Below, piece after piece: positions 10,850 through 12,159 of a DNA stretch of 64,000 nt (positions are counted from its first letter, which is position 1; every line of letters begins with the position of its first letter). The stretch comes from the human T2T-CHM13v2.0 reference genome, Homo sapiens. A program made the position numbers and the translations under genes. Below the pieces are notes generated by a model that saw only the letters and a program-made list of their open reading frames with translations, searched no databases and was not told the DNA's origin. The DNA lies in assembly GCF_009914755.1 (NCBI RefSeq), contig NC_060941.1, one strand, 5' to 3'.

Positions 10850-10904
10850 TCACACTGTGCTGATTCTTGTAGCATGGAAGGCCATTGGCTCAAGGATCAT
10901 CTCT

Positions 10905-11430
10905 CTCTTTTTATTTTTTATGGTGAAAAGATATACATATATTTAGAATTGGACAGCTGGACTCAGTTTAGACGATCCCAATTTTGTTGGCAACATCCAA
11001 AGCATCGTAATCAGGAGCCAGTCCAACATATGCCTTCTTCTCTCCATCAGGCTGAATCGGGGTGTTGACCTTGGCCACATCAATGTCATAGAGCTTCTTC
11101 ACAGCCTGTTTGATCTAGTGCTTGTTGGCTTTAACATTCACAATGAACACAAGTGTGTTGTTGTCTTCTATCTTCTTCATGGCAGACTCAGTGGTCAGTG
11201 GAAACTTAGTGATAGCATAGTGGTCAAGCTTGTTTCTCCTGGGGGCGCTCTTCTGAGGATATTTGGGCTGCCTCCGGAGTCGCAGTGTCTTGGGCCGCCG
11301 GAAGGTGGGTGACCTGTGGATCTTCTTTCTTTTTGTGGCTGTGGACACCTTTCAACACTGCCTTCTTGAGTTCGGCTTTAAGAGGGGCAGGAGATTCTTT
11401 CTTTGCCTTCAGCACCGTCTTGTGAAAAAG
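10905..11430 (-). pseudogene. RPL23A: Processed pseudogene of ribosomal protein L23a, full length
   Basis: [22 protein letters not shown]...DNNTLVFIV and C-terminal ANKIGIV*. No introns, decayed polyA, 13-bp TSD aaggatcatctct (10892-10904 / 11428-11440). Start ATG>ACG (11416-11418), deletion, frameshift, premature TAG. Confidence 0.96.
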
Positions 11431-12159
11431 GATCATCTCTAATGAAGACTTTCAGCCTGTATGCCCTGAATGTAAAACTGACCACCTGTGGCTCTGGATC
11501 CCCATTGTGCCCCATATGAACATCTCCCAGGGCACCTGCACACTTCTCAGATTTATTTTATTTACATACTATCGTCCCTCATTAGGCAGTGAGCTCCTTG
11601 AGGGCAGGGGGTGATCTTGGTCATCTCTGCATCCCTGGTATGTAGCATAAAGCCTGTGCATATTAGGCGTTCAGTAAATCTGTGTTACATGAATGGTAGG
11701 AGGTGCTTGGAAGGCCTCTTTCCTGTGCATCTTCCTGCCTCCTTGGAATTAACCCAATGATGAGGGGTGGAGGGACACCAGAGGATGGACTGAGGGGCTG
11801 GCGTTGAGGTGTGGGAATCTGTCTCATCTGGCAACCTTTGCAGATTCCCACACTCACCTGCACTCATGCTTCATCCCAGGCATGTTGCGTGGGTTTGTCC
11901 GGCCTCTCCTGCACTCCTGCCTCTGTGTCCTGGCACCTTTTCTCCTCTTGGGCTTGCTGAACAGGGCACATGTCTGGCATTGGGAGCAGAACTACTCTTC
12001 TCCATTCATTTTACTCTCACAAGAGCTTCAAGAGGTAGGATGGGTGGAGATGATCTACCTCCATGTTACAGCTAAGGTCAGTCAAACTCCAAGTTCACGC
12101 AAGTTGGTGGCAGAACAGGGTCCAGTGATGATCAAGGAAGGAGATGGGGTGGGGAACGT

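What the first reader, a model, noticed from the sequence alone, without database searches (positions are those of the whole stretch)
10854..11536. RPL23A retrocopy inserted in the middle of a relic collagen exon
Removing the retrocopy and one TSD copy rejoins ttttacattcag|GGC ATA CAG...GAT GAT CCT TGA GCC AAT GGC CTT CCA TGC TAC AAG...|GTGAGT, i.e. GIQ...(G)DP (G)AN GLP (G)YK, continuous across the insertion point. Just upstream, 11536-11486 reads GAL GDV -- GHN GDP ePQ (51 nt, one Gly codon short of 54). The 20-nt gap between these two blocks is too short for an intron, so they are either one exon or the intron was deleted. The insertion gives a datable minimum age for gene death and independently supports the relic.
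Basis: seen in the sequence. Interest (0 to 1): 0.7.

Follow-up and report, generated by a model that had tools for sequence, protein, structure and literature searches.

The report
Ribosomal pseudogene, not a split collagen exon
This is the already annotated dead retrocopy of ribosomal protein gene RPL23A sitting in ordinary non-coding DNA; the collagen exon it was said to split is not there, although a decayed collagen gene does lie several kilobases away on the same strand.

Summary
The retrocopy is real and ordinary. It is RPL23AP75, on the minus strand. It is an intronless copy of the spliced RPL23A mRNA with a short poly(A) remnant and a 13-nt target-site duplication. It has lost its start codon and carries deletions, a frameshift and a stop. 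It differs from its parent at 5.7% of aligned bases, which I read as roughly 30-45 Myr old; the calibration is recalled.

The claimed collagen exon is not supported:
- Each frame has 1 Gly in 24-25 codons and all three have stops; the stretch is 76 nt.
- Its Gly periodicity is at background level: 1206 equal or better runs in the window.
- Its GTGAGT "donor" lies inside an ancient SINE.
- Pfam and 12 full-length multiplexin collagens find nothing there.

A decayed collagen XV/XVIII-like (multiplexin) gene lies on the same strand from about window 5.1 kb to -8.5 kb. It has Gly-X-Y runs and relic endostatin exons. It looks about as old as the SINE, so the retrocopy does not date its death.

The parts
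11428..11440 (-). 5' copy of the target-site duplication (AGAGATGATCCTT). Its last 4 nt also match the 5' end of the parent mRNA, so the true duplication is 9-13 nt.
   Evidence: longest exact direct repeat between the flanks. (the alignment to the spliced parent reaches 11431).
10919..11427 (-). Body of RPL23AP75: a near full-length, intronless copy of the spliced RPL23A mRNA (5' UTR, coding sequence, 3' UTR). Start ATG is now ACG. About 21 nt are deleted in the N-terminal Lys/Ala-rich part. There is a 1-nt insertion (frameshift) and CAG is now TAG (stop).
   Evidence: uL23 and Ribosomal_L23eN matches. (parent gene found on the same chromosome, exons spliced at GT..AG; 483 matches, 29 mismatches, 6 gap events). 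The hub's gene table lists RPL23AP75 at 10919-11443.
10905..10918 (-). Degenerate poly(A) remnant, 14 nt, 11 of them A.
   Evidence: sequence. (the parent alignment ends at 10919).
10892..10904 (-). 3' copy of the target-site duplication.
10854..10891 (-). No Gly-X-Y signal. Positions 10854-10868 and the 'donor' GTGAGT (10853-10848) lie inside the SINE below.
11441..11470 (-). No Gly-X-Y signal. It lies in the unassigned stretch between two old repeats.
11486..11536 (-). Judged to be chance.
   Evidence: No family at E<=10 for the ORFs that hold it.
10552..10868 (-). Ancient dispersed repeat. I recall its core as the MIR SINE; the name comes from no call. It supplies the proposed donor site.
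   Evidence: four nhmmer rounds over 295 kb of human DNA gave 48 hits at E<=0.01, this copy included. This copy is 76.0% identical (139 of 183 aligned bases) to the family consensus.
11549..11706 (.). Second old dispersed repeat. I recall it as an L2-type LINE 3' end on the + strand; the name and orientation are recalled.
   Evidence: 11 hits at E<=0.01, this copy included. The copies share one end and stop at varied points on the other.
2182..2441 (-). Not part of the insertion site. This is the clearest exon-like block of the real collagen relic: 18 Gly in 27 triplets across one frameshift, followed by GTGAG.
   Evidence: Run score is 16, against a maximum of 14.5 in 100 shuffles. All 12 full-length multiplexins hit it.
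3109..3162 (-). Not part of the insertion site. A 54-nt stop-free block with AG before and GT after, and Gly in 4 of 6 triplets. Likely relic collagen exon.

Best explanation
RPL23AP75 is an ordinary processed pseudogene. A spliced, polyadenylated RPL23A mRNA was reverse-transcribed into a staggered chromosomal nick by the LINE-1 machinery. This left a near full-length cDNA, a poly(A) tail and a 9-13-nt target-site duplication, and the copy then decayed neutrally.

It landed in about 144 nt of non-coding DNA between two much older interspersed repeats. It did not land in a collagen exon; the Gly-X-Y reading of the flanks is a chance pattern.

Shown: the retrocopy's anatomy, its parent, its defects, its divergence, the repeat nature of the flanks, and the lack of any collagen signal at the site.

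Inferred: LINE-1 as the agent, from the anatomy. The age of roughly 30-45 Myr, from recalled primate neutral divergences.
For: Retrocopy:
- It matches uL23/L23a at E=6.6e-39.
- The parent gene was found on the same chromosome as five exons with GT..AG introns, which the copy lacks.
- The alignment to the spliced parent covers parent positions 4-542 of 542, with 483 matches, 29 mismatches (10 of them at the 34 CpG sites) and 6 gap events.
- There is a 14-nt A-rich tail and an exact 13-nt flanking repeat.
- The bases before the 5' repeat copy read ..TT|AG.., close to the LINE-1 nicking preference as I recall it.
- In a multiple alignment with nine other RPL23A retrocopies, 10 of 35 mismatches carry a base shared by 4 or more of the 9. 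These are changes in the parent lineage, so the copy's own decay is about 4-5%.

No exon at the site:
- Frames are inconsistent, with 1 Gly in 24-25 codons and stops.
- The best phased GGN count in any 54-nt window is 3 of 6 upstream and 1 of 6 downstream; 1072 minus-strand positions in the window score 3 or more.
- Run score is 4, against 1206 runs of 4 or more.
- A strict scan (AG, stop-free multiple of 9 nt, at least 60% Gly in phase, GT) finds 6 candidates in the window and none between 10 and 12 kb.
- The proposed donor lies inside a 48-member repeat family.
- 0 of 6 flank ORFs hit any Pfam family at E<=10.
- 0 of 243 minus-strand ORFs of 1-14950 hit Pfam Collagen.
- None of the 78 minus-strand tblastn hits of 12 multiplexins lies between 5133 and 14674.
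Against: - A dead collagen gene does lie on the same strand. Its 5' half could not be traced, so the site may lie inside its former transcription unit, and an exon decayed beyond recognition cannot be excluded by sequence alone.
- The upstream block has a donor-like CAG|GT, and the site has an acceptor-like pyrimidine run followed by AG.
- Real DNA holds more Gly-X-Y patterns than shuffles do (49 against 26.3 +/- 6.0), so shuffles understate the background.
- The 144 nt around the insertion point were not assigned to any repeat.
- No empty-site ortholog could be fetched with these tools.
- The repeat names and the age calibration are recalled, not computed.
Confidence: 0.9

Rival explanations
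1. One reading: the retrocopy split a relic Gly-X-Y collagen exon, and so gives a minimum age for the death of the gene.
For: - The flanks rejoin cleanly, with acceptor-like and donor-like dinucleotides.
- The upstream block has 4 Gly in 17 codons.
- A collagen relic exists on this strand 5.7-7.7 kb downstream.
Against: - The two halves of the reading are in different frames, with 1 Gly in 24-25 codons, stops, and a length of 76 nt.
- Periodicity is at background level.
- The donor is SINE sequence.
- There are no Pfam Collagen or multiplexin matches at the site.
- In the multiplexin queries, the hits to the clear relic block at about 2.4 kb fall at 0.39-0.71 of protein length. As I recall the architecture, sequence far upstream of that would be expected to encode the non-collagenous N-terminal part.
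- The relic is far more decayed than the retrocopy, so the insertion date adds no bound.
Confidence: 0.04
2. The site is a former intron or 5' region of the dead multiplexin gene. The retrocopy is then a late passenger inside a dead transcription unit, but not in an exon.
For: - The retrocopy is on the same strand as the relic.
- The relic's traceable part (5.1 kb to -8.46 kb) matches mainly the second half of multiplexins. Hits at 2.2-2.5 kb fall at 0.39-0.71 of protein length and hits at -8.35 kb at 0.96-0.98. The missing first half should therefore lie upstream, between 5.1 kb and the IGFBP4 start at 14951.
Against: - No N-terminal domain relic was found. No laminin-G/TSPN-type Pfam hit appears among 243 minus-strand ORFs.
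- No hit to the first half of a 5-protein collagen XVIII profile reaches E<1.
- The 5' half may have been deleted, or the relic may be only a partial gene copy.
Confidence: 0.4
3. The RPL23A copy is a working retrogene rather than a pseudogene.
For: It is near full length, and most of the coding sequence still aligns at about 94%.
Against: - The start codon is now ACG.
- About 21 nt are deleted.
- There is a +1 frameshift and a premature TAG.
- The longest uL23-like ORF is 78 aa.
- RefSeq curates it as a pseudogene (hub table).
Confidence: 0.01

Closest known systems
LINE-1-mediated processed pseudogenes of ribosomal protein genes (the RPL23AP series)
   Same: Intronless copy of the spliced mRNA, poly(A) remnant, short target-site duplication and disabling mutations. 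The own-genome search returned 39 other RPL23A retrocopy places at 85-90% identity to this one (40 scored of 111 candidates). Nine that I fetched differ from the parent by 0.55-7.5%.
   Different: Nothing of note. It is the annotated RPL23AP75. At 5.7-6.8% divergence it is among the older of the ten copies compared.
Collagen triple-helix exons (Gly-X-Y; 54-nt and related exon sizes)
   Same: Only superficial features: a pyrimidine run plus AG, a GT a short way on, and two pairs of Gly-X-Y triplets in the upstream block.
   Different: No Gly every third residue, stops in all three frames, lengths of 76 nt and 51 nt, no AG before the first Gly codon of the 51-nt block, a donor made of SINE sequence, and no profile or homology match.
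Multiplexin collagens COL15A1 and COL18A1 (for the neighbouring relic, not for the insertion site)
   Same: On the minus strand and in the right order:
- Gly-X-Y runs at 2182-2441, 3109-3162 and 1297-1386.
- A match to the first endostatin exon at window -4989..-5060.
- A match to the last endostatin exon at -8320..-8460, keeping all three cysteines of that exon.

   Different: - Riddled with stops and frameshifts.
- Only 33-46% identical to living endostatins over 39-55 residues.
- Middle endostatin exon, trimerisation domain and N-terminal domain not found.
- Not annotated in the RefSeq table given by the hub.
MIR SINE and L2 LINE 3' end (names recalled)
   Same: The two flanks belong to dispersed families with 48 and 11 members in 295 kb. 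The copy at 10552-10868 is 76% identical to its family consensus.
   Different: No repeat library was available, so family names rest on my memory of the consensus cores. The 144 nt at the insertion point itself stay unassigned.

Membership tests
Processed (retrotransposed) pseudogene | Colinear with the spliced mRNA of a parent gene and lacking its introns | tested here: met
   Parent RPL23A was found with five exons and four GT..AG introns. The copy aligns to parent positions 4-542 of 542 without the introns.
Processed (retrotransposed) pseudogene | Poly(A) tract at the 3' end, followed by a target-site duplication that also precedes the 5' end | tested here: met
   A 14-nt A-rich remnant at 10918-10905. 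An exact 13-nt repeat at 11440-11428 and 10904-10892.
Processed (retrotransposed) pseudogene | Disabled reading frame | tested here: met
   ATG is now ACG, about 21 nt are deleted, there is a 1-nt insertion, and CAG is now TAG.
Collagen triple-helix exon | Gly at every third residue, or a clear majority in one phase if decayed, across the exon | tested here: not met
   1 Gly in 24-25 codons in each frame of the rejoined stretch. Phased count is at most 3 of 6 upstream and 1 of 6 downstream. Run score is 4, equal to background.
Collagen triple-helix exon | Exon starts with a whole Gly codon after AG, has a length that is a multiple of 9, and ends before GT | tested here: not met
   The rejoined stretch is 76 nt. 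The 51-nt block is preceded by CA. No candidate between 10 and 12 kb in the strict scan.
Collagen triple-helix exon | Match to Pfam Collagen (PF01391) or to real collagens | tested here: not met
   0 of 6 flank ORFs. 0 of 243 minus-strand ORFs of 1-14950. No minus-strand tblastn hit of 12 multiplexins between 5133 and 14674. Caveat: the clear relic block at 2181-2378 also failed Pfam Collagen, so this test is insensitive to decayed single exons.
Multiplexin collagen gene (neighbouring relic) | C-terminal endostatin domain | tested here: met
   For:
- Pfam Endostatin E=0.016 for L032:1348-1728(-).
- tblastn with the COL15A1 last exon, E=2.4e-4.
- The top two hits of an NC1 profile score 8.6 and 8.2 bits, while 0 of 11,920 control ORFs from 248 kb reach 8.2.
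- The two relic ORFs hit 87 and 90 of 110 multiplexin proteins.

Against:
- The PDB sequence search found no endostatin.
- The genome-wide PF06482 search did not list the locus.
Multiplexin collagen gene (neighbouring relic) | Interrupted Gly-X-Y domains upstream of the endostatin domain, same strand, colinear | tested here: met
   Run score 16 at 2244-2441 was reached by 0 of 100 shuffles. 78 of 88 tblastn hits are on the minus strand, ordered from mid-protein at 2.4 kb to the C-terminus at -8.4 kb.
Multiplexin collagen gene (neighbouring relic) | N-terminal thrombospondin/laminin-G-like domain and trimerisation domain | tested here: not met
   No such Pfam hit among 243 window ORFs and 57 of 112 L032 ORFs. 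No first-half profile hit at E<1. No trimerisation-region hit in the NC1 profile search.

The most novel reading that the evidence does not exclude
The interval between the TOP2A start and IGFBP4 holds the unannotated wreck of a third multiplexin collagen gene, a relative of COL15A1 and COL18A1. It is intron-containing, on the minus strand, and traceable from about window 5.1 kb to -8.5 kb. It probably died at about the age of the local MIR-type SINE.

RPL23AP75 would then be a much later passenger in or just upstream of its former 5' territory. If the relic is an old vertebrate paralog rather than a partial duplicate, some non-eutherian vertebrates should still carry a live gene in this position.
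Probability: 0.6. Interest if true: 0.5.

Novelty: already known. Interest (0 to 1): 0.15.

Why it matters
For the finding as given, little follows. It is a curated pseudogene in non-coding DNA, and it neither supports nor dates a collagen relic.

What could matter is the side result. Humans are described as having two multiplexin collagens, XV and XVIII, the sources of the angiogenesis inhibitors restin and endostatin (review PMC7852327, passages read). A decayed third member next to TOP2A and IGFBP4 would add a lost gene to that family. It would also give a concrete, testable locus for asking when and in which lineages it was lost.

Tried and rejected
I sent stop-free ORFs instead.
- Own-genome DNA searches with each flank found only the flank itself, so they did not show the old repeats. 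Plain blastn within the window gave only marginal hits. Iterated nhmmer was needed.
- The own-genome search with 1250-3480 was swamped by an Alu.
- The relic's 66-aa ORF found only itself among 21 candidates.
- The PDB search with the endostatin-like ORF gave only an antibody chain at E=0.7.
- The genome-wide PF06482 search listed COL18A1, COL15A1 and one weak chr10 place, but not this locus.
- With composition-corrected tblastn, the relic hits are individually weak, E 0.08-5. The case for the relic rests on strand bias, order, controls and the number of queries that agree.
I therefore could not collect longer L2-type copies to test whether the 144 nt at the insertion point are old LINE sequence.
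- I could not assign the relic to the XV or the XVIII clade. Its best matches mix both.
- Literature: 'RPL23AP75' is in 0 papers. Searches on multiplexin, pseudogene, paralog, ohnolog and gene loss listed nothing on a multiplexin pseudogene (listings only, and one search was polluted by 'multiplexing'). In the review PMC7852327 I read only the matched passages.
- Two script errors, caused by an hmmsearch option clash, were fixed.

Full report
**What is at the coordinates**

Read on the minus strand, the stretch 11440-10892 has the full anatomy of a processed pseudogene.
- An exact 13-nt direct repeat, AGAGATGATCCTT, lies at 11440-11428 and again at 10904-10892. It is the longest repeat shared by the two flanks.
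- Between the copies lies an RPL23A-like sequence that ends in a 14-nt A-rich remnant (10918-10905).
- The 78-aa ORF at 11115-11351 matches ribosomal protein uL23/L23a at E=6.6e-39, one of 52 matched PDB sequences.
- The same ORF matches Pfam Ribosomal_L23eN at E=7.1e-14.
- The hub's table names it RPL23AP75.

**Parent and age**

The window's own genome holds many RPL23A retrocopies. One search scored 40 of 111 candidates, and the best non-self match was 89% identical.
- I fetched 200 kb around the expected place of the parent on the same chromosome and found it as separate exons.
- Nine other retrocopies fixed the exon ends, and all four introns obey GT..AG.
- The spliced parent is 542 nt with a 156-codon ORF.
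- RPL23AP75 aligns to parent positions 4-542 with 483 matches and 29 mismatches: 24 transitions, 5 transversions, and 10 at the 34 CpG sites.
- There are 6 gap events totalling 28 nt.
- The uncorrected distance is 5.7%, the Kimura two-parameter distance 6.0%, and the non-CpG distance 19 of 478 = 4.0%.

The copy's defects are as follows:
- The start codon reads ACG.
- About 21 nt are missing from the Lys/Ala-rich N-terminal part.
- One inserted base shifts the frame.
- A CAG has become TAG.

The last 4 nt of the 5' repeat copy also match the mRNA's 5' end, so the true duplication is 9-13 nt.

In a multiple alignment with nine other retrocopies, the count is 35 mismatches in 512 columns; gaps are placed differently there. 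At 10 of these positions the base in RPL23AP75 is shared by 4 or more of the 9 other copies. At one position all 9 share it. These are changes in the parent lineage, so the copy's own decay is about 4-5%.

Set against primate neutral divergences as I recall them (not computed here), that puts the insertion very roughly 30-45 Myr ago, in anthropoid primates. The bases at the 5' repeat boundary read TT|AG, close to the LINE-1 endonuclease preference as I recall it.

**The claimed exon**

A script removed the retrocopy and one repeat copy and translated the result.
- From the acceptor-like AG to the GTGAGT the stretch is 76 nt.
- The opening 'GIQ' is in frame 0, and the 'DP / AN / GLP / YK' part is in frame 1.
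- Frames 0, 1 and 2 have 1 Gly in 25, 25 and 24 codons and 2, 1 and 1 stops.
- The upstream 51-nt block is real (GALGDVHMGHNGDPEPQ), but it has two pairs of triplets in two phases.
- Its first Gly codon is preceded by CA, not AG.
- Read straight through, that block's frame runs into frame 1 of the 'exon', which adds one out-of-phase Gly in the next 30 codons and a stop.

**Is it more than chance? No**
- The pattern 'two Gly-X-Y, 0-3 residues, two Gly-X-Y' occurs 49 times in the window's six frames, against 26.3 +/- 6.0 in 100 shuffles. The excess in real DNA comes partly from Alu copies and GC-rich islands.
- In 54-nt windows, the best phased GGN count is 3 of 6 upstream of the insertion and 1 of 6 downstream. 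1072 minus-strand start positions in the window score 3 or more.
- With a local run score (+2 for Gly, -1.5 otherwise), the flanks reach 4, and 1206 runs in the window reach 4 or more.
- A strict scan for collagen-type exons finds 6 in the window, against 2.7 +/- 1.4 in 30 shuffles (maximum 6). None lies between 10 and 12 kb.
- No family matches the six flank ORFs at E<=10.
- None of the 243 minus-strand ORFs of 20 aa or more in 1-14950 matches Pfam Collagen (150 at E<=10, 93 at E<=1).
- That Pfam test is weak for single decayed exons, because the clear relic block at 2181-2378 fails it too.

**What the flanks are**

Own-genome DNA searches saw each flank only once. Iterated nhmmer over 295 kb of human DNA showed both to be old dispersed repeats.
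- 10552-10868 belongs to a family with 48 hits at E<=0.01 after four rounds.
- 11549-11706 belongs to a family with 11 hits. Its members share one end and stop at varied points on the other.
- From the consensus cores I recall these as a MIR SINE and an L2 3' end; no tool named them.
- The alignment of the first family to the window starts at 10868. The last 15 nt of the proposed exon and its GTGAGT 'donor' (10853-10848) are therefore SINE sequence.
- This SINE copy is 76.0% identical to its family consensus (139 of 183 aligned bases).
- The 144 nt between the two repeats, which hold the insertion point and the 51-nt block, remain unassigned.

**The relic collagen is real, but elsewhere**

While scanning, I found that the top phased-Gly run of the whole window is on the minus strand at 2244-2441.
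- It holds 22 triplets with 14 Gly and scores 16.
- The next best run scores 11, in a CpG island. 0 of 100 shuffles reach 16; their maximum is 14.5.
- One frameshift further on come five more triplets with 4 Gly, followed directly by GTGAG.
- At 3109-3162 there is a stop-free 54-nt block with AG before, GT after, and Gly in 4 of 6 triplets.

I then fetched the 10 kb before the window (L032).
- A 127-aa minus-strand ORF there (L032:1348-1728, window -8652..-8272) hit Pfam Endostatin at E=0.016, on profile positions 125-164 of 170.
- That E-value alone is at noise level among 150 proteins, so I tested it further.
- A genome-wide search with PF06482 returned the three endostatin exons each of COL18A1 and COL15A1.
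- tblastn with those exons against the 26-kb interval put the COL15A1 last exon at window -8320..-8433(-), E=2.4e-4, 36% over 39 residues. All three cysteines of that exon are kept.
- The same search put the COL18A1 first exon at -4995..-5060(-), E=0.021.
- A profile of 28 collagen XVIII NC1 regions gave those two places as its top two of 1207 ORFs, at 8.6 and 8.2 bits. Both are on the minus strand and in the right order; the third-best hit has E=3.7.
- None of 11,920 ORFs from 248 kb of control human DNA reached 8.2 bits; the maximum was 7.3.
- The two relic ORFs hit 87 and 90 of 110 multiplexin proteins, with best E-values of 7e-6 and 0.001.
- Twelve full-length collagen XV and XVIII proteins gave 88 tblastn hits at E<=5, 78 of them on the minus strand.
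- These hits cluster at 5133-4919, 2486-2176 (all 12 queries), 1428-1240 and -8347..-8463. The last cluster is hit by 9 of 12 queries, at 0.96-0.98 of protein length.

Results against the relic:
- The relic's 66-aa ORF found only itself in the genome.
- The PDB sequence search found no endostatin.
- The genome-wide family search did not list the locus.
- With composition correction, single hits are weak.
- No middle endostatin exon, trimerisation domain or N-terminal domain was found.
- A few hits, at -3.65 kb and -6.94 kb, are out of order.

I rate a genuine dead multiplexin-type gene at about 0.85.

**Bearing on the finding**
- None of the 78 minus-strand hits lies between 5133 and 14674, so homology gives nothing at the retrocopy site.
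- The site is 5.7 kb upstream of the most 5' candidate block and 7.7 kb upstream of the clear 54-nt block.
- It may lie in the dead gene's former 5' territory. I put that at about 0.4, but there is no evidence of an exon there.
- At the Gly-codon positions of the best relic block, 43 of 54 G are retained. That is about the decay of the neighbouring SINE (76% identity) and four to five times that of the retrocopy.
- This estimate is biased towards retention, because I picked the best block.
- The gene was therefore dead long before the insertion, and the retrocopy sets no useful bound.

**Known or new**

RPL23AP75 is curated in RefSeq, and no paper in the library names it. Four literature searches listed nothing on a multiplexin pseudogene (listings only). 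The review PMC7852327, of which I read only matched passages, speaks of collagens XV and XVIII in mammals and extra paralogs in zebrafish. Supplements and pseudogene databases were not checked.

**Verdict**

The finding itself is ordinary and already known, and I score it 0.15. The dead multiplexin gene nearby is the lead worth following.

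Noticed in passing
window 1297-1386, 2182-2441, 3109-3162 and perhaps 4919-5133, minus strand: Collagen-like relic blocks. The best run has 18 Gly in 27 triplets across one frameshift and ends at GTGAG. There is also a clean 54-nt AG..GT block. All 12 full-length collagen XV/XVIII queries hit 2176-2486.
   Followed up: partly
L032:1540-1728(-) = window -8272..-8460, and L032:4940-5068(-) = window -4932..-5060: Relic endostatin exons (last and first of three) of a collagen XV/XVIII-like gene, outside the window and about 2 kb upstream of the TOP2A start. 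They are colinear with the collagen blocks. No annotation is given for them in the hub's table.
   Followed up: partly
window 62240-62565 (+) against 10552-10868 (-): These two copies of the MIR-like repeat stay alike for about 130 nt beyond the part shared by the other 46 family members. This suggests a longer or composite old element.
   Followed up: no
parent RPL23A, G000:C17 about 29,662,799-29,666,743; spliced position 364: At this position all nine other retrocopies and RPL23AP75 carry C where the present parent gene has G. The change is therefore in the parent lineage, or in this assembly, after the retrocopies were made.
   Followed up: no
window 14648-15226, minus strand: Several high phased-Gly runs (scores 8-11) fall in the GC-rich IGFBP4 promoter and 5' UTR. 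I read them as a composition effect, not as collagen.
   Followed up: no
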